Shown here one piece after another: positions 27,554-41,814 of a stretch of DNA of 64,000 nt. The notes beneath the pieces were generated by a model that saw nothing but the letters and a program-made list of their open reading frames with translations, searched no databases and was not told the origin of the DNA. The first letter of the stretch is position 1; each line of letters starts with the position of its first letter. The translations under genes and the position numbers were made by a program. The stretch is taken from contig OZ252100.1 of NCBI GenBank assembly GCA_965248435.1, positions 1,408,001 through 1,472,000 on the forward strand, given 5' to 3'. This stretch comes from Candidatus Latescibacterota bacterium (GTDB lineage Bacteria; Latescibacterota; UBA2968; GCA-2709665).

Positions 27554-27670
27554 GCCTAACGGTGGGTGTCTGTGAACCCCGGCGTCGGTGGGGTTGGGTG
27601 AATCGGTGGAGCCGGGGTTCCCGTCAGGCCGAAGGAGAGCAGTGACTGAAGCACAGACACATTGTTACCT
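27554..27670 (-). repeat. attC-like site of the sensor-kinase cassette
   Basis: gcctaac..gtgtctgtg-aaccccggc..gccggggtt..cacagacac-att-gttacct; gttacctgcctgtggcag matches the cassette start at 31410. Confidence 0.75.
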
Positions 27671-27754
27671 GCCTGTGGCAGTTTGGGATCAGCTAAAGGA
27701 ATATCGGGGACGACATCGCCCTCTTTGTTTTTTCTCTTTTTGTTTTGCCTTCTT

Positions 27755-27810
27755 TTTAACGCTAACCGGCCTCGCCGCAGGCGGGGTCCGTGTTGAGCGG
27801 CTTGTTATCC
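27755..27810 (-). repeat. degenerate canonical-type attC relic
   Basis: minus strand ggataac-aagcc-gctcaac...gttagc, with no correctly spaced R' GTT. Confidence 0.5.
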
Positions 27811-27855
27811 AATTTTTTGAACACTTTTCGGATAATCCATTCGGCTACGGAATCT

Positions 27856-30800
27856 CTAGCTTTGATTGAATGGTAGAGTAATCGAAAATTCCGCGCCTTG
27901 ACCTACTTCACTTTCTACTGTCAGTTCACCTTTATGGTTTTGAATTATATTGTAAGCATTGATCAAACCCATGGCCATCCCGACTCTGGTGTCCTTTGTT
28001 GTAAAACCTAATTCGAAAAGCGTCTTTATTTTTTCTGCGGGCATGCCTTTTCCCGTATCTGAGATTTTAACATACACATTATTCTCATCTGAAGATGTAT
28101 TGATGGTGATGGTACCTTTCCCTTCAATCGCTTGCGCCGCATTCCGCAATAGAGTCATGAAAACTTGATTGAGCTCGGCTGGATAACATCGAATCTCTGG
28201 AATATCACCATAGATCTTTTCAACGTGCACTCGGTCTTTCATTTCGTGTTGGATTAACGTCAAGGCGCTATCCAACCCTTCGTGAATGTTTGCACTTTCG
28301 AATTCGGCTTCATCCAATCTGGTAAAATTTCGCAAGCTAGTTATAACCTTCATAATTCTTTCACCGGCAGATGATGCGACCTTACGATTATCTTCGAGAA
28401 TTTGAAGAGACTTCTGATAGGCACTATTATCCTTGAGTTCAGCAAGGGTGTTACTATTTTCCAAAATTTGATTTATTTTTGTGCCACATCGACTCATGGT
28501 GTCCACTGTACTTTTGAGCGCACCAACCGGCGTATTAATTTCATGAACAATGCCTGCGGTAAGTTTTCCCAACGCCGCCATCTTTTCTGATTGCACCAAC
28601 TGCACCTGCGTATCTCGTATCTCTTTGGTTTTTTCTGCTACCTGAATTTCAAGGTTTTTCCTTTGGGTCTCAATATTCCTTATCCTTCTTCTGTACCAGC
28701 CAAACGCCAATGCCAAAACAGATGCACCTGCAACAATCCTGAACCACCAGGTTTGCCAGGGAGGTCGGTCTACGACGACCCCCAGCTCGGCGATGTGGCC
28801 ACCCCATACCCCGTCCTTGTCGGCCGCAACGACCTCGAGCGTATAGCTTCCTCCCTGCAGGGCGGCGTAGCGACCACGACGTGTGGTGCCTGCGTCGTAC
28901 CAGTCCTCGTCCACGCCTTCGAGCCGATAGCGGTACTGAATGTCACCGACGCTCCGGTAGTCCAGCCCGGCGAACTCGAACTCGAAAAGGTTGTTTCGCC
29001 AATCGAGATGGATCGATCGGATTTTCTCAGGCGCAGCGCCCAGATTGAGCGGCTTGCCGCGTTGCGTGAGCGAGGTAATGTAGACCGGGATGGAAGTGGA
29101 GGTGGTCTCATCCGTGATCGCCTCGGGGTGAAAGCGGATGATGGTGTTGTCTTCATAGAACCAGAGCTCACCGTCCTCGGTGACCAGCGGCCGAAAAGCC
29201 CCGATGTGAAAGTCCAATCTGTAGAGCTGAGCATCGCCGGTCTTGGGATCGAAGCGGACGATTCCCCCGTCACCGCCTATCCATAGCTGGCCTCTCGGAT
29301 ACTCCGTGATCTGCCCGGCCGAGCCCATCGGAAACGTGCCATCGCGCTCGGAGAAGCGGCGAAACGTCCCGGTGTTGGGATCGAAACGGTTCAGCCCGGC
29401 TTCACTGCCGATCCAATAGGTACCCGAGGAATCCTTGAAGAATTGGTACAGGGTGTTGCTGGCGAGCGTGGTCGGATCGTCCGGGTTGTGCTTGTACTTG
29501 GCCACAACCTTCCCGGTACGCGGGTCAAATCGGTCGAGTCCGCCTCCCAGCGACGTAACCCAGATGAAGCCCTCATCGTCCTGGTAGATGGAGAGGGCGA
29601 CGCCAACGCTGAAGCTCGTCTCGGATGAAGGATCCGGTTCGAAGTAGGTCGTTTCCCCCGTGGGCTTGTGAAACTTCAGCAGCCCCAAGCCGGCGGTGCC
29701 AAACCAGAGGATATCCGGATCGCCGCGGTCCTCGATGGGGCTGTGTGGCCAGGCCTTGGCAGGATAGGTCTTTTTTGCTTTACCCGTCTCCCGGTCGACG
29801 AGGACGATCCAATTCATCGACGTCATCCATAGGTTTCCCTGCGTATCCTCGATGAGCGCGTGCCCGTACGATTCCGGCAGGCTCTCGGGGTCGTCCGGAA
29901 CGTGGCGGTAGTGCGTAAACGCGCCGGTCTTGCGGTCGTAGCGGTCCAGCCCCGCCCCCCCTACGGCAATCCACACCACGCCGGTGCGGTCCTCGATGAT
30001 CTGGCCGATATACGATCCTTTGCTCACACTGTTATGTACGCCCGGCACGTGTCGCACCGTCTGGAACCTCTGCCCCTTCGGGTCGTATCGATTGATCTCG
30101 CCGCCCAGGGTGACAATCCATACTGCGCCCGAGTTGTCCATGACGATGTCCAGGAGGATGTTGCTGCCGATGCCATCGGGATCGTTGGCCTCGGAGTTGT
30201 ACTGGTGGTGCGAAAACGTCTCGTTGTCGGGGTCGAATATGTTGAGTCCGCCCCCAAACGTCGTGATCCACAACTTGCCGTCCGGGAACTCGATCATCGA
30301 ATAGACAGAATTGCTACTCAGACCGGATGCACGATTGGAGTCGGCGACATAGTGGGTCACGGTCCGAGTGACAGGGTCGAGCCTCTGCAGCCCGGCGTCA
30401 GTTCCCACCCAGATCGTTCCGTCGCTACCTTCCATGATGACGTTGATGTGGCTGCCATGCAGGCTCATCGGATCGTCACTCCGGATCGGGTATCGCTCGA
30501 CAACGATCCCGTTGGTGGGATCGAACTTATGCAGACCGTGGACCGTGCCGACCCACAGGAAGCCATGTCGGTCCTGGATTATCGCGCTTACGAAGTTATG
30601 GATGAGCTTTGCGGAGTCGGTCGGGTCGCTGCCGTAACGGGTGAAGCGCTTCTCACTCTTATCGTACCGGTTCAACCCGTCTCCAGTCCCGACCCATATC
30701 GCTCCATCGCGATCCTCGACGATCGTCTGGAACATCAAGATGTTGTCGTTGCTAATGCTTTCGGGCTGCCCGGGATCGTGCTTGTATTGAGTGAACCTGT

Positions 30801-31164
30801 CGGTCGCCTTGTCGTAAGAGCAGAGCCCGCTTGTCGTGCCGATCCAAAGGATACCCTCGCTGTCCTCGTAGAGGGCGTTCACGAAGTTTCCGGTGATGGA
30901 GTGCTCGCCAGCGGAGTAACGGTGGAAATCGTAGCCGTTGTACTTGACCAGTCCACTTTGCGTGGCCAACCACCAAAAGCCGTCCCGATCTTGAAGGATT
31001 GCGAATAAATCGAACCCTGTCGCGATCTTCTCGAAGCGCGGGGACTGCGCCCGGGCGTTGGACAGCTCCGCATGCGCTTCAGGTGTTTTAACTTCTTGTG
31101 ATTGTCCGAACCCTGTCGCCAGGCCGATTAGAATAAAGCCTATAAAGATGACCTGTTTTGTCAT
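27856..31164 (-). CDS. sensor histidine kinase with periplasmic two-component-regulator beta-propellers, Y_Y_Y domain, TM, HisKA and HATPase
   Basis: many D..G.lWiGT repeats; YRYRLEG; PPWQTWW; EKMAALGKLTAGIVHEINTP; DTGKG, GMGL-like, GAEF. Confidence 0.93.
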   Translation of the reverse strand: MTKQVIFIGFILIGLATGFGQSQEVKTPEAHAELSNARAQSPRFEKIATGFDLFAILQDRDGFWWLATQSGLVKYNGYDFHRYSAGEHSITGNFVNALYEDSEGILWIGTTSGLCSYDKATDRFTQYKHDPGQPESISNDNILMFQTIVEDRDGAIWVGTGDGLNRYDKSEKRFTRYGSDPTDSAKLIHNFVSAIIQDRHGFLWVGTVHGLHKFDPTNGIVVERYPIRSDDPMSLHGSHINVIMEGSDGTIWVGTDAGLQRLDPVTRTVTHYVADSNRASGLSSNSVYSMIEFPDGKLWITTFGGGLNIFDPDNETFSHHQYNSEANDPDGIGSNILLDIVMDNSGAVWIVTLGGEINRYDPKGQRFQTVRHVPGVHNSVSKGSYIGQIIEDRTGVVWIAVGGAGLDRYDRKTGAFTHYRHVPDDPESLPESYGHALIEDTQGNLWMTSMNWIVLVDRETGKAKKTYPAKAWPHSPIEDRGDPDILWFGTAGLGLLKFHKPTGETTYFEPDPSSETSFSVGVALSIYQDDEGFIWVTSLGGGLDRFDPRTGKVVAKYKHNPDDPTTLASNTLYQFFKDSSGTYWIGSEAGLNRFDPNTGTFRRFSERDGTFPMGSAGQITEYPRGQLWIGGDGGIVRFDPKTGDAQLYRLDFHIGAFRPLVTEDGELWFYEDNTIIRFHPEAITDETTSTSIPVYITSLTQRGKPLNLGAAPEKIRSIHLDWRNNLFEFEFAGLDYRSVGDIQYRYRLEGVDEDWYDAGTTRRGRYAALQGGSYTLEVVAADKDGVWGGHIAELGVVVDRPPWQTWWFRIVAGASVLALAFGWYRRRIRNIETQRKNLEIQVAEKTKEIRDTQVQLVQSEKMAALGKLTAGIVHEINTPVGALKSTVDTMSRCGTKINQILENSNTLAELKDNSAYQKSLQILEDNRKVASSAGERIMKVITSLRNFTRLDEAEFESANIHEGLDSALTLIQHEMKDRVHVEKIYGDIPEIRCYPAELNQVFMTLLRNAAQAIEGKGTITINTSSDENNVYVKISDTGKGMPAEKIKTLFELGFTTKDTRVGMAMGLINAYNIIQNHKGELTVESEVGQGAEFSITLPFNQS

Positions 31165-31403
31165 AGCCTATTTTTCCTTCTTTTTATTTTGGTCAGCGGG
31201 CAAGTAAACACTGAAGGTCGTCTTACCGGGTTGACTTTCTACTTTAATTTAACTTGTGATTCTGTGGTAAAAATTCGGCATATCTCAGTCGTGGCCGAAA
31301 AAATCCGGCATAGTCCATTCGTCGTAAAAAAAATCCAAAATGGGGTAGGGGGTGCCTTTGTCCCCCTTATGCTTTTCAGATCAGCCCCAAAAACTGCCAT
31401 GGC

Positions 31404-31489
31404 AGGTAACGTTCTCGGCACCCACGAACCCGCCGCAGGCAGGTTGGGCGGAGGCCGGATGGCCGGAGCCGCGCACGGTCGTGTTAGGC
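31404..31489 (-). repeat. attC-like site
   Basis: taacgttctc..aacccgcc/ggcaggtt..ggccggatggcc..gtcgtgttaggc. Confidence 0.8.
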
Positions 31490-31519
31490 GTAGCCACTCC
31501 GGCCACATTACCAAGAGGA

Positions 31520-32302
31520 TCAGAACATCACATCCAGAAGAAGGAAATACTCAATTTTGTCCCAATCCAGTTTCTCTTCAAGACGCTCCAGAAGAAGACC
31601 TACGTGCTGCTCTCCGAGGTCCTCTTTGACGCTCCTTATGCACATGGCAATGTCAAACCATTTGTCTCCGACACCTCCACGGCCCCAGTCGATGATCCCA
31701 GAAATGCGCTGACCATCGACGAAGAAGTTCCCGTCACTCATGTCACCGTGCGAGAACGCGGGCTCCTGGTCTGGAATATTGTCCTTTAGATGCTTGACCA
31801 GCGCTGAGGGCGATGGGAAACCTGTATTCTCGGAGCAAAAGTCTTCTTCGGCGGCGAGTCCACTCTCCAGGAGGTACTCCAATTCCGTCAGTCTGCCTTC
31901 AACGGGAATGGGGATTGGACATTCGACATGATCAATTGATTGAATGAGCCTTAAAGCCTCGATATAAGTATCTATTACTTCTGGAGGATCAAAGTCCTTT
32001 CTCTCGTACAGCAATACGCCATCTACTTCCGACATGAGCAGATACTCACGGTCGTCATCAGAAACGAAATGCATAACCCGGGGAACGGCAAGCTTACCAT
32101 CGAGCCATCGTAGGACATACTTCTCTCGTCCGACTCCGTACGTCGTGTTCTCATACCGCTTGTCGCTCACCTTCAAGAACAAGACATCCTTGTCTCTGGA
32201 GAGCCTATACACATCGCAGGGTGACATACTACCCACTTGCGATGAAAGCGAATAGTCAGAAACGATCGCTTGGAGACTGTCAGGTAGTGAGTGTAGTTCC
32301 AT
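31520..32302 (-). CDS. APH(3')-like aminoglycoside phosphotransferase (cassette)
   Basis: MSPCDVYRL, TTYGVGREK, FSHGDMSDGN, IDWGRGG..DKWFDIA, DWDKIEYFLLLD closely parallel APH(3')-III. Confidence 0.88.
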   Translation of the reverse strand: MELHSLPDSLQAIVSDYSLSSQVGSMSPCDVYRLSRDKDVLFLKVSDKRYENTTYGVGREKYVLRWLDGKLAVPRVMHFVSDDDREYLLMSEVDGVLLYERKDFDPPEVIDTYIEALRLIQSIDHVECPIPIPVEGRLTELEYLLESGLAAEEDFCSENTGFPSPSALVKHLKDNIPDQEPAFSHGDMSDGNFFVDGQRISGIIDWGRGGVGDKWFDIAMCIRSVKEDLGEQHVGLLLERLEEKLDWDKIEYFLLLDVMF

Positions 32303-32332
32303 TCGTCAAATGGTTTCCGCCGGAGGGGTTTC

Positions 32333-32474
32333 GCCCAACGGTCTCGCGGGCTGCGAACCTGCCGAGCGGGCGCGGCGGTTGCAAACCGGGCTTCTCATCA
32401 GCAAGCGCCGTGACCGCGAAAGGCAGGTTGGGCGAAGTGGCGTATGCCACGAGCCGCAGCCGGTCGTGTTATAA
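32333..32474 (-). repeat. attC-like site (long form)
   Basis: gcccaac..ggctgcg aacctgcc..ggcaggtt..gtggcgtatgccac..cgcagcc..gttataa. Confidence 0.85.
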
Positions 32475-32520
32475 GCCGTGCCGCTCCCACATCGCTTGAA
32501 GACGACACCATCGGGTGGCT

Positions 32521-33534
32521 TCAATTGAGGGTTTCGAGGTGGTTCTTGAGGGCTTGCAGATGGAGAATGATCCATTTTCGAGGGCCATCCCAGATCTGGC
32601 TCTTTGCTTGTCCCTCTGCGTCCAAAGCACGTGGAACCCAGACCGTGGTAACTCGTAATCTCTGAATCGCTACCAAGGCCCTGCACTTTTTCACCTCTGG
32701 CCAGAAGGCCTGCCACTTGATGTCGGATGATGTCTCGGAGTTGTAGGTGTCAAGATACTGTCTAGCGACCTGTTCGACAGGAATCTCGTAAGGTTCGCCG
32801 TGGTCAATGATCAAGGCTATCAAATCCATGAACCGGGGTCCAATGGCGCCACCAGCGATGTCAAAGAAAAGTACTTCCCCGTCCGCGCAGCGCTGTCCTG
32901 TATGAGGGCTGTAAGGTTCGCCGTGGTTGAACGACTGCGGGAGTTGATCTGCTTCCTCAAGCAACGAAGACACTCGTTGCTGACTCATTTGGAGAACAGG
33001 ACGCAACTCATACTCAGAAATGGCTTTCTGGAGAAGATCATCGTCGATCTGGAGAGCTCCCTCAACATCTAATAGATACTGATCGAGATTGGCCGACCAT
33101 TCTATCAATCTGAGAGGTGCACCGTCCGGCAGTGGCAGGGCAGCCAACTTGGCGGTGGAGTCAGCCCATTTCAGATGATAATCGGGTGGGATTGGCCAAT
33201 CGATGGAGATTGGAAGGTACTCCAAGATAAGCGTACAGTCACCATTGGGGTGGTCACGGTATCCAAACATGACTGCGACAGGAGCACTCAAGCGGTTCAG
33301 GAGAGTATATATCTCCGTTTCTCGTGAAAAATTCGCGGTTACCCTCTTGAGTATGACCCTGTGTTCTCCCGAGTTGTTAACTCGAAGATAAACCAGTGCC
33401 TTCTCCCCATTCCATCCACCAAGGTCCTCAGTTTCCTTCTCAACGAGGAGTTGGTCAATAGTGATGGAGCGGTCAAGATGCTCGGAAAGGATCTTCTGAA
33501 GGTCCGCTTCCGTCACACCGAGTACCGATTTCAT
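32521..33534 (-). CDS. APH/choline-kinase-like phosphotransferase family protein (cassette)
   Basis: ILKR..RE, LILEYL, PQSFNHGE, FFD...GPRFMDL; catalytic loop atypical (HGE..S.H). Confidence 0.7.
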   Translation of the reverse strand: MKSVLGVTEADLQKILSEHLDRSITIDQLLVEKETEDLGGWNGEKALVYLRVNNSGEHRVILKRVTANFSRETEIYTLLNRLSAPVAVMFGYRDHPNGDCTLILEYLPISIDWPIPPDYHLKWADSTAKLAALPLPDGAPLRLIEWSANLDQYLLDVEGALQIDDDLLQKAISEYELRPVLQMSQQRVSSLLEEADQLPQSFNHGEPYSPHTGQRCADGEVLFFDIAGGAIGPRFMDLIALIIDHGEPYEIPVEQVARQYLDTYNSETSSDIKWQAFWPEVKKCRALVAIQRLRVTTVWVPRALDAEGQAKSQIWDGPRKWIILHLQALKNHLETLN

Positions 33535-33583
33535 GACTCCTCACCAGTCCTTACTAATACCCAATCGACAGGAGCGGCATGGC

Positions 33584-33735
33584 TTATAACGGTCTCGGCA
33601 CTCCCCAAACCTGCCGAGCGGGCGTGGCGGTTGCCTTAACAGTTTTTTATTGGCTAGCAGCAAGCACCGTGACTGCGAAAGGCAGGTTTCAGCGGAGGCG
33701 CGTATGCGCCGTAGCCGTGGGTGCTCGTGTTACAC
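33584..33735 (-). repeat. attC-like site (long form)
   Basis: ttataac..aaacctgcc..ggcaggttt..ggcgcgtatgcgcc..gttacac. Confidence 0.85.
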
Positions 33736-33810
33736 GCAGGCGGCGCGCCCCCATCATGGGCAGGTATACAGGGGCTGAAATACAGTGCACACCATAAACA
33801 GGGGTGGCAG

Positions 33811-34491
33811 TTACGCACTGGGGCTCACGACCTGGCAGGAGCACCCAGGAGCAACGTACTCGCTGGCCCCCTCGCCAAATCGGACGACACCATCATAGCC
33901 AAGAGCGATGATCTCCGTACCGGCAACCACGATCGCGGACCGTTCTGAGATGGCGAGTACAGGATGCGAATGGTCCCCGACTAGCCGTGATATCATTGGG
34001 TCGTCTGAAGTCTTGTAGTGACACCATATCGTGAAGCCGTCGACGACCCCGAGGCCAGTCGTGTCCGCCAACCCTACGTCATTGGGATCTGCATGTTCGC
34101 AGCTTCTGATGTCGCATCCCATTATGATCGCACCGGCACTTCCGCCGAAGACTGGTCCGCCCGCTTCGATGAAGCGTCGCAAACCGGGCTCCATCTTCTT
34201 CGAGCGCAAGTTGGCAAGCATTGAGAAGGTGTTGCCCCCTCCGATATACACACCGCCAAAGTCCCCAAGAAGATCCGGATTTTAGTCTCCTGGGCCTGCC
34301 CACATCTGGATGGAGGTGACCCCGAAGGGGGAAATTGCCGCACAGATCCATCTGTAGGAATCCTCTGCCGGGAAGGCATCACCGGGCACGTATAGCAGAG
34401 GTTCCCTACCTGCGACCCAGGCCGCAAAGAGTTCGTGGTGGAGACGGGTTTCGTTCTCGTCTCCGCCTCCAGATAGCACGAGTCTCATCAT
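33811..34491 (-). pseudogene. peptidase E (S51)-like cassette gene interrupted by one in-frame TAA at 34282-34284
   Basis: LVLSGGGD start and YIGGGNT, GGSAGA, WCHY motifs in the same frame on either side of the stop. Confidence 0.82.
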
Positions 34492-34590
34492 TGGGTCGAT
34501 CCCTTGTCTGTCGTCCAGTGACGGGCTTCGGCTTCTTGCTCTTGTGCACGACTTGCAGAGGTGGTGTGGCTGGGATCTTGCGCCGCTTGC

Positions 34591-34733: not shown

Positions 34734-34748
34734 GGCGTTGGCCAGGTT

Positions 34749-35309: not shown

Positions 35310-35343
35310 TGGTGGTTACTGGATTCATTCCCCGGCCAATGCC

Positions 35344-35432
35344 GTATAACGTTCTCGCGGGCTGCGAACCTGCCGAAGGCAGGTTAGGTCCGAGGCCCGA
35401 AAGGGCCTGAGCCGCGCACGGTCGTGTTATGA
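35344..35432 (-). repeat. attC-like site (short form)
   Basis: gtataac..aacctgccgaaggcaggtt..ggcccgaaagggcc..gttatga; overlaps the stop codon of 35427-36257. Confidence 0.85.
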
Positions 35433-36257
35433 GCCGTGCCGCTCAATTACTGTGATGAGATCATACTCTTCGTGTAATCTGTATCCAAGCTTTAGAGCAA
35501 GACCGTCTGATCGTGGATTTTCGGTGGTTCCCCAATGAGGCTCCTTGTCACTCCTTATGCATTCTGACAGAAGGGCAGCTGAGGCGACAGTTGCAAGACC
35601 TAATTTCTGAAAGCCGTCATCTGTTCCCACTCCCACCTCAATCGAGGATTCACTCACTCCGAAGGAAGTGGCTTCCGCAACTCGTTCACCGTCCTTGAGA
35701 ATCCAAAAACTGATTCCGCCTCGTTCAAAGAATCGTCTCAGCCTGACAAAGGCCAGAACCTTTCTTTCCACATCGATCCCTCTTTCCCTTGCCATTTCCT
35801 CATCGAACCGACGGAGCTCAAATCCAGGCCGCAGCCGACCTCTGAGGTCCGAGAGATGGGTGAGGTCCAGGAACTTTGCAGAGTAAATCTTCCTTCTCCG
35901 TGTCAGGACTCTCTTTTCAATAGCCGAAAGTATAGCCGTGTTCCACTCCTCATTCTCTGGTGTCAAGAGTTCTCCGGTGAACTCGGTACTCCACTGGGGG
36001 TAAGAATTGGCAACAGAAATCCTCGAACAGATTTCCCCAAGACTCGTCAAAGATGGATCCCCGCCAATCAGAACGTCTGAACCCACCCTCAACTTAGCGA
36101 TCCGAGGATTCACAGCATCATCCACGGAAACCTCGACAAAGTCCTTAAATCCGTCGAAATAACCTTCGAAAGTTGCGTCAATATAGGGACGAAGCCTTCT
36201 GTGGCCATCGAACAGGCTGCTACATTGGAACCAGTCTTCAGGTTTCAGTTTGACCAC
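35427..36257 (-). CDS. GNAT family acetyltransferase (cassette)
   Basis: IEVGVGT...QKLGLAT, PHW...N.RS..LALKLGY. Confidence 0.85.
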   Translation of the reverse strand: MVKLKPEDWFQCSSLFDGHRRLRPYIDATFEGYFDGFKDFVEVSVDDAVNPRIAKLRVGSDVLIGGDPSLTSLGEICSRISVANSYPQWSTEFTGELLTPENEEWNTAILSAIEKRVLTRRRKIYSAKFLDLTHLSDLRGRLRPGFELRRFDEEMARERGIDVERKVLAFVRLRRFFERGGISFWILKDGERVAEATSFGVSESSIEVGVGTDDGFQKLGLATVASAALLSECIRSDKEPHWGTTENPRSDGLALKLGYRLHEEYDLITVIERHGS

Positions 36258-36329
36258 AACAAGCTCCTCTCTTCTGCGGCATGGCTCATTGTATCTTGAA
36301 AATATGATCTATTTGTAGATTATCTTGGT

Positions 36330-36505
36330 TCGAAGAAGACCTCTGGGGAGGCCGGATTGCGCATGAAGGCATTGACCTTGGACGTTAGATAGGCCCCCCG
36401 CCTTCTTGGCCCATGCCGAGGAGTATCCGAGACCCGAGAGTCTGTATCACAAGGCTGGTAGGCCAGGTGCAAGGTCGGGGGACCAGAGGTACAAATAAGG
36501 AGGGA
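36330..36505 (+). ncRNA. putative bridge/seek RNA of the IS110 element
   Basis: two stem-closed loops holding segments that match the target (attgcgcat, acgtta) and the donor junction (gagtatc, ggtacaa); exact ends unknown. Confidence 0.68.
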
Positions 36506-36511
36506 GAGATC

Positions 36512-37504
36512 ATGAAGCAAGAGAATCTGTTGGGGGTAGATGTCTCAGCCCGGGAGCTGGTGGTCGCGATCCGTCGCTCAGGGAAAGCGTATCCACTGGC
36601 AAGATTTCCCAACACAGGCGAAGGGCACCGTCGATTGATCAAGTGGGCGACAAAGCGGGGAAAGCCGGCTCGAGTGGGAGTCGAGGCCACAGGCATCTAT
36701 AGTTTTGAGGTGGCGTTGGCGTTGTATCGGCATCCGAAGACTCAGGTGATGGTAATCAACCCCAGAGCGCTGAGGAATTTCTCTCAGGCTTTGATGAAAC
36801 GGGGGAAAACCGACCCGATCGATGCGGAAGTGGCATTGGAGTATGTGCAGCGGATGCCCTTCCAGACGTGGCAGGCACCCCGTGATGAAGTACTTGACCT
36901 GCAGGCGATTACACGCCGGATCGCGCAGATCAAAGTCGAGATCAACCGGGAAGGAAACCGGCTTCACGCTTCCACGCAACGCCCATCGGTCGCGTCTGCG
37001 GTCGCCTTGGACATCGAAGAGCATGTTGAACATCTCAAAGCGCGTGTGCAGCAGCTGAAAGCGCGGGCTCTGGAGCTCATTGAGGGGGAAGCCACTCTGC
37101 GCGAGAAGTTCGCGCGATTGACTTCCGTTCACGGGATCGCAGCAACCAGCGCGATGGGCATTCTGGCAGAGATTTCGATGTTGCCTGCCGACATGAAGCC
37201 TGCCCAATGGGTGGCCTACGCAGGCCTGGATCCACGACCCCACGAATCGGGAGACACGATTCAGAAGCGCCGAGTGATCTCCAAAGCGGGGAATAAGTAC
37301 TTACGAACCGCCTTATATATGCCAGCGCTGGTGGCCATTCAACAGCAGCCCAATGTGAAGGCGTTCTACGAAAAACTCATCAGTCGAGGCAAGAAGCCCA
37401 TGCAGGGGGTCATCGCGGTGATGCGAAAGCTGCTTCACTCCATCTGGGGTATTCTCCAACACAACCAGGACTTCGACGGAGAAAAGTTCTACAAAATGGC
37501 TTGA
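36512..37504 (+). CDS. IS110 family DEDD transposase/recombinase
   Basis: GVDVS, VEATG, KTDPIDA, HGI, AYAGLDP..HESG, SKAGNKYLR. Confidence 0.96.
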   Translation: MKQENLLGVDVSARELVVAIRRSGKAYPLARFPNTGEGHRRLIKWATKRGKPARVGVEATGIYSFEVALALYRHPKTQVMVINPRALRNFSQALMKRGKTDPIDAEVALEYVQRMPFQTWQAPRDEVLDLQAITRRIAQIKVEINREGNRLHASTQRPSVASAVALDIEEHVEHLKARVQQLKARALELIEGEATLREKFARLTSVHGIAATSAMGILAEISMLPADMKPAQWVAYAGLDPRPHESGDTIQKRRVISKAGNKYLRTALYMPALVAIQQQPNVKAFYEKLISRGKKPMQGVIAVMRKLLHSIWGILQHNQDFDGEKFYKMA

Positions 37505-37521
37505 CCACCAAGAGAGTATCT

Positions 37522-37616
37522 AACGTTCCCGCGGGCTGCGAACCTGCCCAAGCGCAGCGAAGGCAGGTTAGGTCGGAGGCCCGAAAGGGCCGGAGCCGCA
37601 GCCCGACGTGTTAAGT
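37522..37616 (-). repeat. attC-like site (short form), core interrupted by IS110
   Basis: aacgttccc gcgggctgcg aacctgcc..ggcaggtt..ggcccgaaagggcc..cgcagccc..gttaagt. Confidence 0.85.
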
Positions 37617-37986
37617 GTCCGTGCCGGTGCCCGTATCGAGATACGCTCCAACATCGCGGTCAGACGGATGTCCAGCGTCCGCAGGTCCAGCCCTCCTACT
37701 GACCGATTTGACTCCCTGCAGTACGTGTGTTTCCTTCTCCGACAAGGGCACTATATTAGCGATGGCTATAGCACGACATTGTAGGAGAGACCCGAGCAGT
37801 TCGAGATCGATGACGATATGATGTCCAATCTCGGGCCTGACGGGACATCAATGCTTTGGATCGACCAAAGAGAGATATGTCGACACGAATCCATAGAACC
37901 GAGTGCCCAAGCCGGAAGCTACTTTACCAGCCATCCAGGCGCAAGAAATGGGCCTTGTAGTTCCTACACGTAGAGGAGACCAGAAG

Positions 37987-39033
37987 ATGGACGACGCGAT
38001 GCGTGACACGTTCGCACGACAAGGCTATGTCGTGGTGCCCGACGTTCTCAATCAACAGCAGCTGGACGAGCTCAATGAAGTCTACGATCAGCAGGTCCTC
38101 AGGGGGGAGGAGACGCTGTCCGCCCGCACCGATAACCAGACAAGCTTCTCCGTCCACGGGCGCGACATGCACGAGACGACGGACCGGCACGGCAACACCT
38201 ACGTGGGGAGAAGGCTCTGGAGCAAGACCTACAGGGACCTGATCGACAACGAGACCATGCTGCCCATCGTCGAAGAGATTCTGGGCGACCCGGCGTGGGG
38301 CCATGCCCCGGCACACATGCCGGAAGAGCTCCGCCCGTTGTTCCGGCTGGATCATGACAATGTGCACTACAAGACTGGCCGGAAACCGACAGACGGACCG
38401 GACAAGGGCGGGAGGCTCCACGGCGGCCCGGACCACTGGCATATCACGTGTGTGTATGAACTCAAGACGGTGGGACCGGGTGACGGGGGCTTCGGGTGTG
38501 TCGTCGGCACCCACAAGCCGGCCAATGAGCAGAAACTGCTGGACATCGACGGCGACTGGCGGTCGAACTGGTGCGACACGGAGTGGACGTCGCAGCTGCC
38601 GAACTGGGATCAGGATGTGCCGGTGCATCGCGTCGAGGCCAAGGCCGGGGACTGCATTCTATTCACGGAGAAGCTCAAACACGGCACGATTCCGTGGTCG
38701 GGGAGCGGCGAGCGGCGCACGCTCTTCTACAAGTACGTTCCTTTCGGCATGCACCACGGCGACGCCGCGTACGACACGAATGATCCCGAACTCACCGAGC
38801 GGCAGAAACGCATCCTGGAGTTCTCGCCGTGCTGGTTCAACGAGCCGAGGGAGGACAAAGACTACGCCGCGAACCCGGCGCTCACGGAGCTCCATCCGCT
38901 GGCGCGTGTGGAGAGCGACCCGAGCGTGTTGCTGCCGGGCATGTCGCCGCCGCGCATCCGACTGACGGATGAGACCAGGGCGAGGCTGCTGAGCGCCGGT
39001 GGAGTTGGAGCGAGTGCACACGCGAAGTTGTAG
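37987..39033 (+). CDS. PhyH family dioxygenase, inverted within its cassette
   Basis: RBS aggag; FARQGYVVVPDVL, LHGG, GGFGCVVGTHK, AGDCILFTEKLKHGT, RRTLFYKY. Confidence 0.88.
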   Translation: MDDAMRDTFARQGYVVVPDVLNQQQLDELNEVYDQQVLRGEETLSARTDNQTSFSVHGRDMHETTDRHGNTYVGRRLWSKTYRDLIDNETMLPIVEEILGDPAWGHAPAHMPEELRPLFRLDHDNVHYKTGRKPTDGPDKGGRLHGGPDHWHITCVYELKTVGPGDGGFGCVVGTHKPANEQKLLDIDGDWRSNWCDTEWTSQLPNWDQDVPVHRVEAKAGDCILFTEKLKHGTIPWSGSGERRTLFYKYVPFGMHHGDAAYDTNDPELTERQKRILEFSPCWFNEPREDKDYAANPALTELHPLARVESDPSVLLPGMSPPRIRLTDETRARLLSAGGVGASAHAKL

Positions 39034-39150
39034 TGTTTGATACCTGTCGGCACTTGCTGCGACTGGATCACGGTACCGGCGCCCTGGGCGGATGCGAGAC
39101 AACGCGCCTATCCTGGAGAACCACGCATCGTGTCTAGGCACCGGCATTAC

Positions 39151-39225
39151 ACTTAACGATTAAGCGTGTATCCGGAGTCGGAGAAGCGTGGATGGGAGCG
39201 GGATTCCGGATACACGGTGTTGAAC
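39151..39225 (-). repeat. attC-like site closing the recombinase/Y2 unit
   Basis: acttaac..cgtgtatccgga / tccggatacacg (12-bp perfect IR)..gttgaac. Confidence 0.75.
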
Positions 39226-39430
39226 GAAGCCGCTTCACCTGCCTATGGGGATTGGATGAGTGATTCTTGTGTAAGGACCGCTGGGCTGGCCCAGTCATCG
39301 GACCGTATTTGAAGCTGTTTGGAGGGGCCGATGTCGCAGGATCCCATAGTCGCTCTACCAAGCTCAAAGAGTGGACAGACTACTGCCGTGTTGGGTGGTT
39401 GGGCTTGCGGGCAAGGGATGGTGTAGGAGC

Positions 39431-40615
39431 TCAAGCTACGGCAACATGTGCCGGAGGCGCTCGCAGAGGCGCGAGGGTTCCGACTGTGAGCATAGGGCCT
39501 CCGCACTGCGCACAGACCTGAAGATCGATGCCTGTTACCCGGAGCAGAAGGTCCTGCCAGGTCGCCTTTGTGGCTGCGGAAGCCGTCGTGCATACAGTGC
39601 CCAGGAGCCTACGGCATCGTGCGAGCTTTTTCCGGCGACCCCGATTGCTGAGCAGTCCGTAGTGCCGGATCTTCACGAAGCCATCCGGCAGGATGTGAAG
39701 CAGGAACCGCCGGATGAACTCGTAGGCATCGACGGTCATCAGCTTCCGTCGGTTGCCGTCCTGGCGGTCCCGGTAGTGGAATGAGACCCGGTCGCCCTCA
39801 CAGGCGACCAGCCGGTGGTTGGAGATGGCGATCCGGTGTGTGTATCGTCCCAGATAGGCCACGACGCGTTCTGGATCCGCAAAAGTCGGCTTGACGTAAA
39901 CGGTCCATTCTCTCTGGTAAAGACCCCGAAGCAGATCGAAGAACGCATCTTCCAGTGGAGCACTCAATCCCGGGAACGCCAGAAGGCCTTCCTGGTGCGC
40001 GTCCTTCAGGAACGCAAGGAACTTCCCCCGGAACAGTCGGGACAGAACTTTTACGGGTAGAAAGAAGCCCCGTCGCGCCGCCTTCCATTCCTGACCGTCG
40101 TGGGTCAGCCCACCTCCAGTTACGATACAGTGCAGATGCGGGTGGTCGATGAGTGTCTGAGACCACGTATGAAGCACGGCGGTAAAGCCGATCTGCGCTC
40201 CAAGATACTTCCGTTCCCGCGCCAGCTCCAGAAGACTCTGCGATGCGGCTTTAAACACCAGGTTGTAGATCAGCTTCTGGTTCCGCAGAGCAAGCGGCCG
40301 CAGGGGCTCGGGCAACGTGAAGACGACGTGGAAGTATGGGATCGGAAGGAGATCCTCTTTACGAGCGTCGATCCATCGTTCGGTCGTCAGGAACTGGCAC
40401 TTCGTACAGTGCCGGTTGCGGCAGGAGTTGTAGGCGATCCGCTTCGCTCCGCAGTGTCCGCACACTTCCACGTGTCCGCCCAGCGCAGCTGTTCGGCAGA
40501 TCTGGATAGCCCGCATGGCCCGCTTCTGCCGAAGCGGCATGTGATCACCGTATTCTACTTGATAGCTGTCTCCGTGGGCCCGGAAGATGTCGGCGACTTC
40601 GAGAGCCTGTGACAT
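39431..40615 (-). CDS. IS91-family Y2 (HUH rolling-circle) transposase with Zn-binding domain
   Basis: C..C..YNSCRNRHC.KC, FHVVFTLP, HPHLH (HUH), YLGRY, IRHYG. Confidence 0.95.
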   Translation of the reverse strand: MSQALEVADIFRAHGDSYQVEYGDHMPLRQKRAMRAIQICRTAALGGHVEVCGHCGAKRIAYNSCRNRHCTKCQFLTTERWIDARKEDLLPIPYFHVVFTLPEPLRPLALRNQKLIYNLVFKAASQSLLELARERKYLGAQIGFTAVLHTWSQTLIDHPHLHCIVTGGGLTHDGQEWKAARRGFFLPVKVLSRLFRGKFLAFLKDAHQEGLLAFPGLSAPLEDAFFDLLRGLYQREWTVYVKPTFADPERVVAYLGRYTHRIAISNHRLVACEGDRVSFHYRDRQDGNRRKLMTVDAYEFIRRFLLHILPDGFVKIRHYGLLSNRGRRKKLARCRRLLGTVCTTASAATKATWQDLLLRVTGIDLQVCAQCGGPMLTVGTLAPLRAPPAHVAVA

Positions 40616-40627
40616 GGCCGACCTCCG

Positions 40628-41479
40628 CTACGAAGTCGGCTTGTCTTCATCTCCCAAAAGGTCCAGGGGGCTTCTGATACGCGTGAGGTCCCGGGTGGTG
40701 ACGTGGAGGTAGACGGTGGTGGTTCGAATGCTCGTGTGACCCAACAGTTGTTGGACGAAGCGGATGTCGACTCCGTTGTCCAGAAGATGCGTGGCGAAGC
40801 TGTGACGCAGCGAGTGGACACTCGCACGCTTTTGTATCTCCGCGCGTCGGCAGGCCTGCTCGAAGACTTTCTGGACAGTGCGAGCATGGAGCGGCGCGTC
40901 CGGTCTTTCGCCGGGGAACAGCCAATCGCGAGACGGGTTGGTGCGCCAATAGACGCGGAGTGCCTTTAAGGCCTCCTGGGCCAGAAGCGTCTCTCGCTCT
41001 TTTTGGCCTTTGCCCCGCACACGGATCAGCATCCGGTCACTGTCGATATCGGAAAGCTTTAGCCCGATGGCCTCACTCAGTCTGAGCCCGCCAGAGTAAA
41101 TGACCATCAGCAGCGTACGGTGTTTCAGGTTGTTGGTCCTGTCGATCAGCCGCTGCACTTCCTCTGTGGAGAGTACCACCGGGAGCTTCTTTGCCTTCTT
41201 CGCACGAGGGATGCCCCACTCGACCCAGTCACGCTTCAACGTCGTTTGGAACAGAAACTTCAGCCCGCTGTATACCTGGTTGACATAGCTTTGGGACAGC
41301 TTCCGCTCAGTGATCAGATAGTGCAGATAGGCGCGGATCTCTTCTTCGCTGAGCCGGTCGGGCGGTGTCTTGCAGTAACGACACAGCCCGGCCACTCCGC
41401 TCACGTACGCCTTCTGCGTATCCGGATCTAAACCTTTCAACTGCATGTCCCGGATCATTCGCTTCCGATGCTTGGTCAT
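40628..41479 (-). CDS. tyrosine recombinase (integron-integrase-like, without the IntI-specific insertion)
   Basis: LPVVLS.EEV, GLRLSE, GKG.KER, HSLRHSFATHLL, LLGH...TTVY; short YW...WLFP span. Confidence 0.95.
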   Translation of the reverse strand: MTKHRKRMIRDMQLKGLDPDTQKAYVSGVAGLCRYCKTPPDRLSEEEIRAYLHYLITERKLSQSYVNQVYSGLKFLFQTTLKRDWVEWGIPRAKKAKKLPVVLSTEEVQRLIDRTNNLKHRTLLMVIYSGGLRLSEAIGLKLSDIDSDRMLIRVRGKGQKERETLLAQEALKALRVYWRTNPSRDWLFPGERPDAPLHARTVQKVFEQACRRAEIQKRASVHSLRHSFATHLLDNGVDIRFVQQLLGHTSIRTTTVYLHVTTRDLTRIRSPLDLLGDEDKPTS

Positions 41480-41814
41480 GGCTCTCTCCTTCTGCTGATG
41501 GTGGACGTTGTTAGCAGAAGGAGGATGCGAAGCACAGAGCCATTTGCAAAGTGGCTCCGGACTTGCACGGTATCATATCCTGGTTGTCAAAGAGCAAAGG
41601 CCTTGCAGCAGGCCACCGCGAAGCGGTTTAGTTCAACTTCTGCATTCACGCACCAGGTTCGCTTTTTCGTCCTAATATCCGAGTATAGACGCCGTGCGCG
41701 AATCTGCTAAATAATGTATATAATCTGTCCCTGTTCGCGAATGCTTTTCTATAGATACACCTAATATTCCCAACCAGAGGGTTTAATTCATCAGGCTGTC
41801 AATAGGAATGCATT

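What the first reader, a model, noticed from the sequence alone, without database searches (positions are those of the whole stretch)
27554..41637. Non-canonical integron-like cassette array with long cassette-specific terminal matches and no IntI
Seen: eight palindromic AAC...GTT sites (27554, 31404, 32333, 33584, 34591, 35344, 37522, 39151) separate gene units. The two ends of each unit match as an inverted repeat well beyond the 7-bp core: gttataagccgtgccgctcc (32468) vs rc of 33571-33590; gttacacgcaggcggcgc (33729) vs rc ending 34597; gttatacggcgttggcc (34727) vs rc ending 35350; gttaggcgtagccactccggc (31483) vs rc ending 32339; gttaagtgt..tgccggtgcc (37610) vs rc ending 39157. Known: integron cassettes have complementary R''/R' cores, usually about 7 bp, and depend on IntI. 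Inference: these units circularise into long ssDNA hairpins and belong to an attC class with asymmetric spacers (about 5 vs 8 nt), served by a recombinase other than classical IntI or by one acting in trans.
Basis: partly seen in the sequence, partly recalled or inferred. Interest (0 to 1): 0.88.

Follow-up and report, generated by a model that had tools for sequence, protein, structure and literature searches.

The report
Integron cassette array without classical integrase
This is a real integron-style array of mobile gene cassettes in a genome that has no classical integron integrase, and related genomes suggest it is served by a related recombinase that lacks the part thought essential for integron activity.

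Summary
All eight AAC...GTT sites are attC-type recombination sites (75-152 bp). They bound cassettes read on the minus strand, starting from an attI-like site at 41637-41811.

The long, cassette-specific end complementarity is real. Across 45 cassettes in the genome, the median is 15 of 20 matches, against 9 of 20 for non-cognate ends. It carries a fixed feature: position 11 is a bottom-strand G.T wobble in 24 of 27 well-matched cassettes and is never Watson-Crick.

The genome holds about ten such arrays and no canonical IntI. Some cassettes recur in other arrays with exact cassette boundaries.

The 40628-41479 recombinase and the Y2 protein form an IS91-family unit. It sits in a cassette slot with its own attC and occurs in six copies, each at an attI-like site. 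In one relative the same unit lies in a canonical IntI integron.

In six relatives, recombinases of this IntI-related family occupy the integrase position beside arrays of the same attC class. They lack IntI's additional domain of about 41 residues. One is intact and divergent from its attI.

Verdict: an integron variant probably served by a non-IntI recombinase. No activity has been shown.

The parts
27554..27670 (+). attC S1, the most distal site of the array (plus strand = bottom strand)
   Evidence: GCCTAAC...GTTACCT with internal stems. Its sequence family differs from S2-S7.
27664..31410 (-). Large cassette (3.7 kb) carrying a 1102-aa sensor histidine kinase (ORF 27856-31164)
   Evidence: Pfam Reg_prop, Y_Y_Y, HisKA, HATPase_c. 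The ends GTTACCTGCC.. and rc ..GGCAGGTAAC match.
31404..31489 (+). attC S2
31483..32339 (-). Cassette with an APH(3')-family aminoglycoside phosphotransferase (ORF 31520-32302)
   Evidence: NCBIfam NF033068 221.5 bits, cut-off 205. Ends match 16/20. A 91.8% copy lies at genome 2077069-2077954.
32333..32474 (+). attC S3 (long form, three-way junction)
32468..33590 (-). Cassette with a 337-aa ORF of no known family (32521-33534)
   Evidence: No Pfam or NCBIfam hit. Ends match 19/20. It is absent between the APH and S51 cassettes in the array at 2077 kb.
33584..33735 (+). attC S4
33729..34597 (-). Cassette with a partial Peptidase_S51 ORF (33811-34251)
   Evidence: Pfam PF03575 matches profile positions 87-204 only. 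Ends match 17/20. A 91.7% copy lies at 2077994-2078909.
34591..34733 (+). attC S5
   Evidence: The plus strand folds at -49.0 kcal/mol against -42.3 for the minus strand.
34727..35350 (-). GNAT acetyltransferase cassette (ORF 34749-35309)
   Evidence: Pfam Acetyltransf_3. Ends match 18/20. The whole cassette plus S5 recurs at 97.5% identity at 4654531-4653773, next to recombinase-Y2 copy C.
35344..35436 (+). attC S6 (short form)
35430..37524 (-). GNAT_acetyltran cassette (ORF 35427-36257). Its start (R' partner) is split by an IS110-family element.
   Evidence: Pfam PF12746. GGCTCAT|IS|AAC restores the partner of GTTATGAGCC at 35430.
36290..37521 (+). IS110-family insertion sequence (transposase 36413-37504), inserted just 5' of the AAC triplet of an attC R box
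   Evidence: Pfam DEDD_Tnp_IS110 and Transposase_20; NCBIfam NF033542. Three copies, all at the same position of three different attC sites.
37518..37616 (+). attC S7 (its first four bases come from the IS110 end)
37610..39157 (-). Cassette whose only family match is a PhyH-like ORF on the opposite strand (37903-39033, plus strand)
   Evidence: Pfam PF05721 E=1.4e-9. Ends GTTAAGTGT..TGCCGGTGCC match.
39151..39225 (+). attC S8, the attC of the recombinase-Y2 unit (R box, 3-nt and 8-nt spacers, 11-bp stem)
   Evidence: It is part of all six copies of the unit. The homologous structure is present in G004.
39157..41636 (-). Recombinase-Y2 unit in the first cassette slot: tyrosine recombinase 40628-41479, IS91-family Y2 transposase 39431-40615, IS91-type terminal inverted repeats and attC S8
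   Evidence: Six copies at 96.8-100% identity, with boundaries exactly at G|TT cores. NF033538 452.7 bits. The recombinase scores TIGR02249 195.5 bits, below the 265 cut-off. It lacks the IntI insertion.
41637..41811 (-). attI-like site: a roughly 170-bp region conserved at moderate identity upstream of all six recombinase-Y2 copies and at further loci, ending at the crossover G|TT
   Evidence: At genome 4954226-4954389 the same kind of region follows a recombinase gene fragment and abuts an ordinary cassette.

Best explanation
Region 27554-41811 is a genuine integron-type gene-cassette array. The window's plus strand is the recombinogenic (bottom) strand. Cassettes are read on the minus strand, outward from an attI-like site at 41637-41811. 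Each consists of a gene plus an attC whose variable part is a three-way junction.

The array is one of about ten in a genome with no classical IntI. It belongs to a lineage-specific attC class. In the circular form of each cassette, its own two ends would pair into a 16-20 bp R box. That box has an obligatory non-Watson-Crick position 11: G.T on the bottom strand, A.C on the top strand.

I infer that this class is recombined by a family of IntI-related tyrosine recombinases that lack IntI's additional (I2) domain. Members of the family occupy the integrase position beside such arrays in related genomes.

This genome keeps only a fragment of such a platform gene. It also carries six intact copies of a paralogue, inside an IS91-family unit (recombinase + Y2 transposase + own attC). 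That unit behaves as a cassette and sits at the attI-proximal slot of six arrays.

Shown: the site anatomy, the end complementarity and the position-11 rule, the copy boundaries, the cassette sharing between arrays, the absence of IntI, and the positional association in relatives. Inferred: which enzyme acts, that recombination goes through folded single strands, and that the system is still active.
For: attC anatomy and arrays.

Bottom strand = plus strand. Cassette ORFs lie on the minus strand. The plus strand folds more stably at every site where the two differ: -49.0 vs -42.3, -42.2 vs -32.2, -28.8 vs -26.2, -23.0 vs -20.9, -27.6 vs -26.6 and -14.6 vs -12.8 kcal/mol. The bulged G lies in the 3' arm. 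Among mismatches in the R box, 41 are bottom-strand G.T and 12 are top-strand G.T.

Cognate end complementarity: median 15/20 against 9/20. 38 end-complementary pairs lie in 2.7% of the genome, against 27 control pairs genome-wide. Position 11 is G.T in 24 of 27 and Watson-Crick in 0 of 27.

Cassette-level mobility. The GNAT cassette is duplicated with exact boundaries in another array. The APH and S51 cassettes are adjacent at 2077 kb but separated by a third cassette here.

No IntI. 0 matches over the TIGR02249 cut-off in a 97.5%-complete, 2-contig genome.

Recombinase-Y2 unit. Six copies are bounded at G|TTGAAC and ..ATCG|TTA. The homologous unit in G004 has the same boundaries. It follows the canonical IntI attI twice and an ordinary attC once.

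The recombinase family lacks the IntI insertion. HMM matches are split. The best PDB hit is IntI4 (2a3v), with 26 residues standing in place of 68. The alignment shows 41 IntI residues absent. In a tree of 33 proteins, IntI is one clade (100/100) that excludes all of these proteins, and the host Xer pair is remote.

Platform position in relatives.
- G003 and G018: gene, then an attI of about 120 bp, then G|TTA and the first cassette. The 96.6%-identical block stops at the crossover and the first cassettes differ.
- G002 and G020: gene fragments plus an attI 87% identical to G003's, beside arrays.
- G038: a 66% homologue beside attC sites.
- G001 (same genus): an intact 322-aa gene divergent from an attI ending ..ggtaG|TTA. 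A second attI copy with a 5' gene fragment stands in front of another array.
- This genome: an 82-aa C-terminal fragment, 58-64% identical to family members against 50% to IntI. It is followed by an attI-like region and then G|TTAACAG and cassettes.

No canonical IntI was found in G001, G002, G003, G018 or G020.
Against: No recombination, circle or excision product was observed. The only public runs are kept as assembled contigs, which cannot show rare events.

Most platform genes are damaged. This genome, G002 and G020 hold fragments only. G038 has a 243-aa frame. The G003 and G018 genes lack about 12 N-terminal residues of the SAM-like domain, and their 5' ends differ from each other. Only G001's gene looks intact.

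Of the 11 of 41 relatives that carry the attC module, G012, G014, G021, G031 and G040 showed neither a family member at E<=1e-45 nor IntI. Arrays therefore persist without any candidate.

The IntI additional domain is reported as necessary for activity (Messier & Roy 2001; title seen in a reference list). Cury et al. 2016 concluded that recombinases lacking it near attC sites are not integron integrases (passages).

In G004 the recombinase-Y2 unit lies in a canonical IntI integron, so IntI can explain its movement there. A canonical IntI lost recently, or acting from another cell, cannot be excluded for this genome.

I could not run IntegronFinder's attC model.
Confidence: 0.6

Rival explanations
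1. Ordinary orphan arrays (CALINs) left by classical integrons. A canonical IntI, now lost or acting in trans, built and shuffled these arrays. The IntI-like recombinase genes next to them are passengers: cassette-borne or IS-borne genes that land at attI because attI is the preferred insertion point.
For: CALINs without IntI are common, and 95% are not near an intI pseudogene (Cury 2016, passages). Canonical IntI exists in the same bacterial family (G004) and in 17 of 168 genomes of the phylum. In G004 the recombinase-Y2 unit is a cassette of a canonical integron. Most platform-type genes are degraded.
Against: In G003, G018, G002, G020 and this genome's locus at 4954 kb, the family member or its fragment lies upstream of the attI and outside the cassette series. 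G004's IntI sits in the same position. In G001 it is divergent from attI, as in classical integrons. None of the 11 genomes with this attC module has a canonical IntI. G004, which has IntI, has 0 hits to the module and an unrelated attI.
Confidence: 0.27
2. The arrays are static relics. The only active element is the IS91-family unit, which spreads by Y2 rolling-circle transposition into a preferred target that happens to be the attI-like sequence. Its GAAC/GTTC inverted-repeat termini merely resemble attC cores.
For: The unit's ends are IS91-type inverted repeats. Recombinase-Y2 elements of Pirellulales MAGs (L035-L037) share them but are not flanked by GTT there. IS91 elements insert next to a tetranucleotide target (Replitron paper, passage), and GTTC follows the right repeat here. 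Six near-identical copies exist.
Against: The repeated unit extends beyond the right inverted repeat. It includes the hairpin S8 and ends exactly at G|TT in all six copies, and also in G004's three copies, one of which follows an ordinary attC. The unit's R box obeys the position-11 G.T rule of the cassettes, while the Pirellulales copies do not. Ordinary cassettes have also moved between arrays. G003 and G018 differ in their first cassette, and neither has Y2.
Confidence: 0.08
3. The host's chromosomal XerC/XerD recombinases act on these sites, as they do on dif-like sites of some mobile elements.
For: Two Xer-like genes are present. The attI-like sites carry a short palindrome and a GGTGCGC-like motif about 10 nt before the crossover. 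I recall this as resembling a XerC arm of dif; it was not tested.
Against: There is no positional or co-occurrence evidence. The sites are 75-152 bp folded structures with integron cores, not 28-bp dif-like duplex sites. The host Xer pair is the most distant group in the tree.
Confidence: 0.04

Closest known systems
Classical integrons, including the 'inverted integrase' group with intI co-oriented with the cassettes, and CALINs (clusters of attC sites lacking an integrase; Cury et al. 2016, PMC4889954, passages read)
   Same: attC sites with RYYYAAC / GTTRRRY cores and crossover at G|TT. Promoterless-looking single-gene cassettes in one orientation. An attI next to the integrase position. The same cassettes in different arrays. 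By IntegronFinder's definitions these arrays would be called CALINs.
   Different: No IntI in this genome or in the 10 relatives that share the attC module. The neighbouring recombinases lack the ~35-residue IntI-specific domain. The R box of each cassette is 16-20 bp, cassette-specific and has a fixed G.T at position 11. The spacers are strongly asymmetric. There are several attI-like sites per genome.
IS91 family insertion sequences (Y2 HUH rolling-circle transposases); some members carry an upstream tyrosine recombinase gene (recalled from ISfinder/TnPedia, not seen in any call)
   Same: A full-length IS91 transposase (NF033538 452.7 bits), terminal inverted repeats, GTTC after the right repeat, and multiple copies. 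The same recombinase+Y2 pair occurs in Pirellulales, Eremiobacteraceae, Terriglobia and Acidobacteriota MAGs.
   Different: Here and in G004 the unit also carries an attC-like hairpin. It is bounded at G|TT, sits only in cassette slots (attI or attC junctions), and its inverted repeats double as an R box obeying the position-11 rule.
IS1111-attC group of IS110-family elements, which target attC sites (Tetu & Holmes 2008; recalled, not seen in any call)
   Same: The IS110-family element at 36290-37521 is inserted at the identical position of three different attC sites, in one orientation.
   Different: Membership of that named subgroup was not tested. The target here is the R box of this unusual attC class.
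Tyrosine recombinases lacking intI_Cterm found near attC sites by Cury et al. 2016 (21 proteins, four 'intermediate between IntI and Xer')
   Same: They are IntI-related, lack the additional domain, and lie next to attC sites.
   Different: Those co-localised with fewer than three attC sites and were dismissed as not IntI. Here the association is positional (integrase slot, attI, crossover) and recurs in seven genomes. I could not see their supplementary tree or lists, so I cannot tell whether any of the four belongs to this family.

Membership tests
Integron (classical, IntI-dependent) | Array of attC sites: imperfect palindromes with a 5' RYYYAAC core and a 3' GTTRRRY core, one per cassette | tested here: met
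   Eight sites in the window. HMM hits cluster in about ten strand-consistent arrays.
Integron (classical, IntI-dependent) | Integron integrase carrying the IntI-specific additional domain (TIGR02249 over its cut-off; equivalent to intI_Cterm) | tested here: not met
   0 matches over the 265-bit cut-off in the genome. The window recombinase scores 195.5 bits in two stretches. The insertion is absent.
Integron (classical, IntI-dependent) | attI site beside the integrase gene, at which the cassette series starts and varies | tested here: inconclusive
   An attI-like region ends at G|TT in the window and at six more loci, but no integrase gene lies beside it here. In G003/G018 and G001 it lies beside a family member, and the first cassette varies.
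Integron (classical, IntI-dependent) | Extrahelical bases on the folded bottom strand that set strand choice | tested here: inconclusive
   One bulged G is predicted in the 3' arm of the plus strand in S5-S7. No second extrahelical base is evident. A fixed G.T at R-box position 11 may play that part.
Integron (classical, IntI-dependent) | Cassettes move as units bounded at G|TT | tested here: met
   GNAT, APH and S51 cassettes recur in other arrays with cassette boundaries and a different order. The first cassette differs between G003 and G018.
Integron (classical, IntI-dependent) | Sites score with IntegronFinder's attC covariance model | not testable with these tools
   The model is not available here. 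Rfam has no match in 19000-43000.
CALIN | Two or more attC sites within 4 kb, with no IntI nearby | tested here: met
   Neighbouring sites lie 0.6-3.7 kb apart. There is no IntI in the window or genome.
IS91 family | Y2 HUH transposase with zinc-binding N-terminus | tested here: met
   Pfam Y2_Tnp 208 bits and Zn_Tnp_IS91 110 bits. NF033538 452.7 bits, cut-off 125.
IS91 family | Distinct ori/ter ends with short inverted repeats, tetranucleotide target at the right end, and no target duplication | tested here: inconclusive
   Inverted repeats GAACTAAACCGCTTC.. / ..GAAGCGGCTTCGTTC are shared with MAG elements, and GTTC follows the right repeat. However, the repeated unit extends 65 bp further, to G|TT.
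IS110 family (IS1111-attC-like) | DEDD transposase and orientation-specific insertion at a fixed position of attC | tested here: met
   Pfam and NCBIfam hits. All 3 of 3 full copies lie at the same position, between ..CAT/..ATCT and AAC. The subgroup name is recalled, not tested.

The most novel reading that the evidence does not exclude
A second lineage of integron integrases exists. These are IntI-related tyrosine recombinases without the I2 additional domain. They recombine an attC class in which strand choice and recognition rest on a long cassette-specific R box with an obligatory G.T wobble at position 11, rather than on extrahelical bases read by I2. Within this system, the recombinase-Y2 unit would be an autonomous cassette. 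Its IS91 rolling-circle transposase peels off a single strand whose terminal repeats fold into the R box, and its own integrase inserts that strand at attI. This would explain six recent copies in a genome with no other intact integrase.
Probability: 0.35. Interest if true: 0.9.

Novelty: new variant of a known kind. Interest (0 to 1): 0.74.

Why it matters
Integron biology holds that the IntI-specific domain is what lets a Xer-like recombinase handle folded single-stranded attC sites, and genome surveys define integrons by that domain. A recombinase family without it, sitting in the integrase slot of arrays in several genera, has two consequences. Many 'orphan' arrays (CALINs) may not be orphans. 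And the step from Xer-like recombinases to integron integrases may have living intermediates or alternatives that can be tested at the bench.

The cassette-specific 16-20 bp end pairing with a fixed wobble also bears on an open question: how cassettes are made. Such pairing must either be created with the cassette or be kept by selection.

An IS91-type rolling-circle element living as a cassette links a single-strand-producing enzyme to a single-strand-consuming recombination system.

One cassette here encodes an APH(3')-family enzyme. The class therefore carries resistance-type genes that current integron finders would place in integrase-less arrays.

Tried and rejected
Rfam scan of 19000-43000 at gathering thresholds: no match.

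Tandem-repeat scan of the low-GC stretch at about 20-21 kb: nothing.

My attC and attI HMMs found nothing in G004's canonical integron loci. That array is of another attC class, and I did not characterise its sites beyond one example.

Public sequencing runs. Ten runs hold part of 31400-41300, and none is on record as RNA: 'no RNA holder listed'. All four runs that I laid are kept as assembled contigs. The many 'joints' lie between attC sites, have short sides (18-33 letters) and were found at 90% likeness. They are what similar attC sites of other arrays and organisms would give, and I draw nothing from them about excision. One 6439-nt contig of run X5 joins the GNAT cassette (to 35346) directly to 39154 onward. 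This is the arrangement at this genome's copy C, so it is not independent evidence of rearrangement.

I considered that the attI-like region might be the left end of a longer IS91 element. I rejected this because identity drops from 97-100% to about 60-70% exactly at G|TT, and because the same kind of region abuts an ordinary cassette at 4954 kb.

I considered the 362-aa recombinase at 4624 kb (L009) as the cognate integrase. Its downstream region matches the attI-like profile only up to position 148 of 183, so it lacks the crossover. It scores far lower against IntI/Xer models (81.7 bits). I did not pursue it.

I considered a REP/RAYT-like role for Y2 in spreading the hairpins. I rejected this because arrays of this class occur in genomes without Y2.

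Tree. Before building I dropped three rows: a 163-aa and a 227-aa partial protein, and the 362-aa-type recombinase. The branching order among IntI and the family's lineages is unresolved, so I make no 'sister group' claim.

Literature. Four full-text searches listed no paper describing an IS91-plus-recombinase unit as an integron cassette, an integron platform with an integrase lacking the additional domain, or a long cassette-specific R box. I judged this from the search listings and read only passages of three papers: PMC4889954, PMC4792948 and PMC10288648. Cury et al.'s supplementary tree and lists may bear on whether this family was among their 21 proteins.

Full report
WHAT IS THERE. The window is G000:C1:1408001-1472000 of a 5.67 Mb genome in two contigs, 97.5% complete. 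Each begins with an RYYYAAC-type core and ends with a GTTRRRY core, and they are 75-152 bp long. S2-S7 share a conserved 5' module (AACGTTCTCGCGGGCTGCGAACCTGCC) and a conserved 3' module (GGCAGGTT...GAGCCGCAGCCCG..GTT). Between the modules, one arm varies in length.

With DNA parameters the sites fold as a basal stem carrying two hairpins, that is, a three-way junction. The core heptamer alone is not enriched (88 found, 87 expected), so significance rests on the whole sites. Profile HMMs of the two modules give 71 and 67 hits (E<=1) in the genome. These fall in about ten strand-consistent clusters: 947-993 kb, the window, 2055-2089 kb, 3852-3872 kb, 4654 kb, 4839-4841 kb, 4948-4951 kb, 5335-5340 kb and 5548-5552 kb, plus single sites.

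ORIENTATION. The genes between the sites lie almost all on the minus strand:
- a 1102-aa sensor kinase;
- an APH(3')-family phosphotransferase (over NCBIfam's cut-off);
- a 337-aa protein of no family;
- a partial S51 peptidase;
- two GNAT acetyltransferases.

One cassette has only a PhyH-like ORF, on the plus strand.

The plus strand folds more stably than the minus strand at every site where the two differ, and it carries a bulged G in its 3' arm. The plus strand is therefore the bottom, recombinogenic strand in integron terms. The cassette series is read right to left.

THE END COMPLEMENTARITY IS REAL AND STRUCTURED. With crossover at G|TT, a cassette's first bases and the R'' end of its own attC travel together and would pair in the excised circle. 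I delimited 45 cassettes genome-wide from HMM hits at E<=0.1 whose AAC or GTT could be located (64 and 62 sites).
- Cognate ends match at a median of 15 of the first 20 positions, against 9 of 20 for all 1980 non-cognate pairings.
- 17 of 45 cognate pairs extend to 12 or more positions, against 2.1% of non-cognate pairs.
- Cassettes that fail the test include three interrupted by an IS110 element.
- A scan that does not use the attC models found 101 GTT...AAC end-complementary pairs in the genome. 38 lie in the 154.5 kb of arrays, and a reverse-not-complement control gave 27 genome-wide. Most of the 63 outside are perfect long inverted repeats or 14/16 chance-level matches.

In the 27 cassettes with at least 14/20 matches, positions 4-9 and 12-16 pair in 24-27 of 27. 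Position 11 is never Watson-Crick: 24 of 27 are G.T on the plus strand (A.C on the other strand) and 3 are other mismatches. Over positions 4-20 there are 41 bottom-strand wobbles, 12 top-strand wobbles and 44 other mismatches. The same rule holds in 5 of 7 cassettes seen in relatives G001, G003 and G018. I know of no description of such an R box, and four literature searches listed none.

CASSETTES HAVE MOVED. The GNAT cassette with its attC (34594-35351) recurs at 97.5% identity at 4654531-4653773, with cassette boundaries. The APH and S51 cassettes recur at about 92% identity, side by side, at 2077069-2078909. In the window the 337-aa cassette separates them.

An IS110-family element (36290-37521) has three full copies. 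Each is inserted immediately 5' of the AAC triplet of a different attC. In the window it splits the R box of the second GNAT cassette.

THE RECOMBINASE AND Y2 PROTEIN. ORF 39431-40615 is a full-length IS91-family Y2 transposase. ORF 40628-41479 is a 283-aa tyrosine recombinase with SAM-like and catalytic domains and the R, K, H-x-x-R, H, Y residues. It scores 195.5 bits on the integron-integrase model TIGR02249 (cut-off 265), in two stretches that skip the IntI-specific region. It scores about the same on the XerA, XerC and XerD models. Its best solved relative is Vibrio IntI4 (2a3v), with 26 residues standing where IntI4 has 68. An alignment with a canonical IntI of relative G004 shows 41 IntI residues missing, in three blocks.

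The two genes and site S8 form a 2480-bp unit (39157-41636). It is present six times in the genome at 96.8-100% identity. In all six copies the unit starts at G|TTGAAC and ends at ..ATCG|TTA, which are cassette boundaries. It is followed by an ordinary cassette start.

Its termini are IS91-type inverted repeats (GAACTAAACCGCTTCGCGGTGG / ..GAAGCGGCTTCGTTC). Recombinase-Y2 elements of Pirellulales MAGs carry the same repeats. In this genome and in G004 the repeats double as an 18-nt R box with the position-11 G.T, whereas the MAG copies have a Watson-Crick pair there.

In G004 (same family, 8.1 Mb) the homologous unit (55% and 61-63% protein identity) has the same boundaries. It lies directly after the attI of a canonical, co-oriented IntI (464.5 bits) in two places, and after an ordinary attC in a third. 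The unit is therefore a bona fide integron cassette that contains an IS91-family element.

THE ATTI-LIKE SITES. Upstream of every copy, identity falls abruptly to about 60-70% over a region of about 170 bp. This region is alignable among all six loci. It ends in a short palindrome about 10 nt before the crossover. A profile of it finds further copies. One, at 4954226-4954389, directly follows an 82-aa C-terminal fragment of a recombinase gene and directly precedes G|TTAACAG and a small array. That fragment is 58-64% identical to members of the recombinase family and 50% identical to G004's IntI. The upstream genes at the other loci differ. In the window the upstream gene is a DUF1016/SNase gene.

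NO CLASSICAL INTEGRASE, BUT A FAMILY IN ITS PLACE.
- No frame in the genome reaches the TIGR02249 cut-off.
- Among 41 relatives, only G004 and G036 have a canonical IntI.
- In the phylum, 17 of 168 genomes searched have one, and 1 of 21 in this bacterial family.
- The exact attC 5' module (up to 3 mismatches) occurs in 11 of 41 relatives including G000. The backwards control gives none, G004 has none, and none of the 11 has IntI.

In these genomes, members of the window recombinase's family lie where an integrase should.
- G003 and G018: the gene is followed by about 120 bp of attI and then G|TTA and the first cassette. The two genomes share a 96.6%-identical block that ends at the crossover. 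Their first cassettes differ, and attC sites of the same class follow.
- G002 and G020: fragments of the same gene (76-92% identity) and an attI 87% identical to G003's, next to arrays in the same relative order.
- G038, of another bacterial family: a 66% homologue beside two attC sites.
- G001, the same genus as this genome: an intact 322-aa member with a complete SAM-like domain. It scores 240.9 bits on TIGR02249, still under the cut-off. It is transcribed divergently from a site ending ..gtgtataggtaG|TTACACG. A second copy of that site, with a 5' fragment of the gene, precedes another array whose first cassette shows the end complementarity.

In a tree of 33 proteins, the 16 IntI form one clade (100/100) that excludes all family members, and the two host Xer proteins are remote. 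The order among IntI and the family's lineages is unresolved. Y2 occurs only in G000, G004 and G038, so arrays of this class do not depend on it.

WEAKNESSES. Nothing here shows recombination. Most platform genes are broken. The G003 and G018 genes lack about 12 N-terminal residues of the SAM-like domain and differ upstream. Only G001's looks whole. Five genomes with the attC module showed no family member at E<=1e-45. The additional domain is reported as necessary for IntI activity (title in a reference list). Its I2 helix interacts with attC (Escudero et al. 2016, passages). Cury et al. (2016) looked at 21 recombinases lacking the domain near attC sites in genomes without IntI, and concluded that they are not integron integrases (passages). 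Their supplements were not open to me. The public runs are contigs only and say nothing about excision. IntegronFinder could not be run.

HOW IT MOST LIKELY WORKS. Shown: the array is built of cassettes that are exchanged at G|TT between attC sites and an attI-like site. Each cassette's ends would form a long R box with a strand-specific wobble.

Inferred (about 0.6): the reaction is that of an integron. The bottom strand folds, is cleaved at the AAC triplet, and is exchanged with attI or another attC. The catalyst is an IntI-related recombinase without I2. The long R box and its wobble may take over part of the strand choice and recognition that extrahelical bases and I2 provide in classical integrons.

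In this genome the platform enzyme has decayed. The only intact family members are the six cassette-borne copies, each at an attI-like site. Six of the seven complete attI-like sites are occupied by the unit.

Whether these copies act on the arrays is speculation (about 0.35). So is the idea that the Y2 rolling-circle transposase supplies the single strand. I recall, but did not verify, that IS91 displaces the strand running from the end downstream of its transposase gene.

COMPARISON AND NOVELTY. It works like an integron, and by current software definitions it is a set of CALINs. It fails the defining integrase test. The closest known things are classical and inverted-integrase integrons, IS91 elements with an accessory recombinase, and attC-targeting IS110 elements.

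I rate it a new variant of a known kind. The new elements are:
- the recurrent placement of an IntI-related recombinase lacking I2 in the integrase slot;
- the long cassette-specific R box with a fixed wobble;
- an IS91-type element living as a cassette.

Noticed in passing
window 36290-37521; genome 2066286-2067551 and 3860680-3861922: An IS110-family element with three full copies, each inserted at the same position (just 5' of the AAC triplet) of a different attC site and in the same orientation. A fourth, partial copy lies at 4835981-4836236. No Rfam family was hit in its flanks.
   Followed up: partly
window 31520-32302 (-): A cassette gene scoring above NCBIfam's cut-off for the APH(3') aminoglycoside phosphotransferase family (221.5 bits, cut-off 205), with a 92% copy in the array at 2077 kb. 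Function not tested.
   Followed up: no
window 27664-31410: An unusually large single-gene cassette (3.7 kb) encoding a 1102-aa sensor histidine kinase with Reg_prop propeller repeats. It is bounded by attC S1 and S2 and has matching ends.
   Followed up: partly
window 20001-21000: A sharp dip in G+C (0.41 against about 0.59 around it) with a strongly negative GC skew (-0.35), just upstream of the AcrB-type efflux gene 20953-24156. No tandem repeat or Rfam match was found. Unexplained.
   Followed up: partly
window 20953-26920 (-): An RND efflux operon (AcrB-family pump, HlyD-type fusion protein, outer-membrane factor) lies immediately beyond the distal end of the array.
   Followed up: no
L009 3079-4493 (genome 4624078-4625492) and L011 (genome about 4650-4651 kb): A 362-aa tyrosine recombinase next to cysS. 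It is followed by sequence matching the attI-like profile only up to 35 positions before the crossover. A degraded copy of the same gene and region lies directly upstream of recombinase-Y2 copy C.
   Followed up: partly
L117 14650-16570 (G018): Two platforms in tandem. An older C-terminal gene fragment plus attI is followed by a cassette with two small ORFs that look like a DUF4160/DUF2442-type pair (my recollection, not searched). Then come the longer gene and its attI.
   Followed up: no
L024 (G004 about 2158-2163 kb): G004 carries a second, internally deleted copy of its canonical intI with the same attI and the same recombinase-Y2 unit. That unit is itself interrupted by an insertion of about 1.6 kb near its end.
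   Followed up: no
window 41815-42828 (-): A gene combining a DUF1016 N-terminal domain with a staphylococcal-nuclease domain ends exactly where the attI-like region begins. The same gene precedes copy B at 3849 kb.
   Followed up: no
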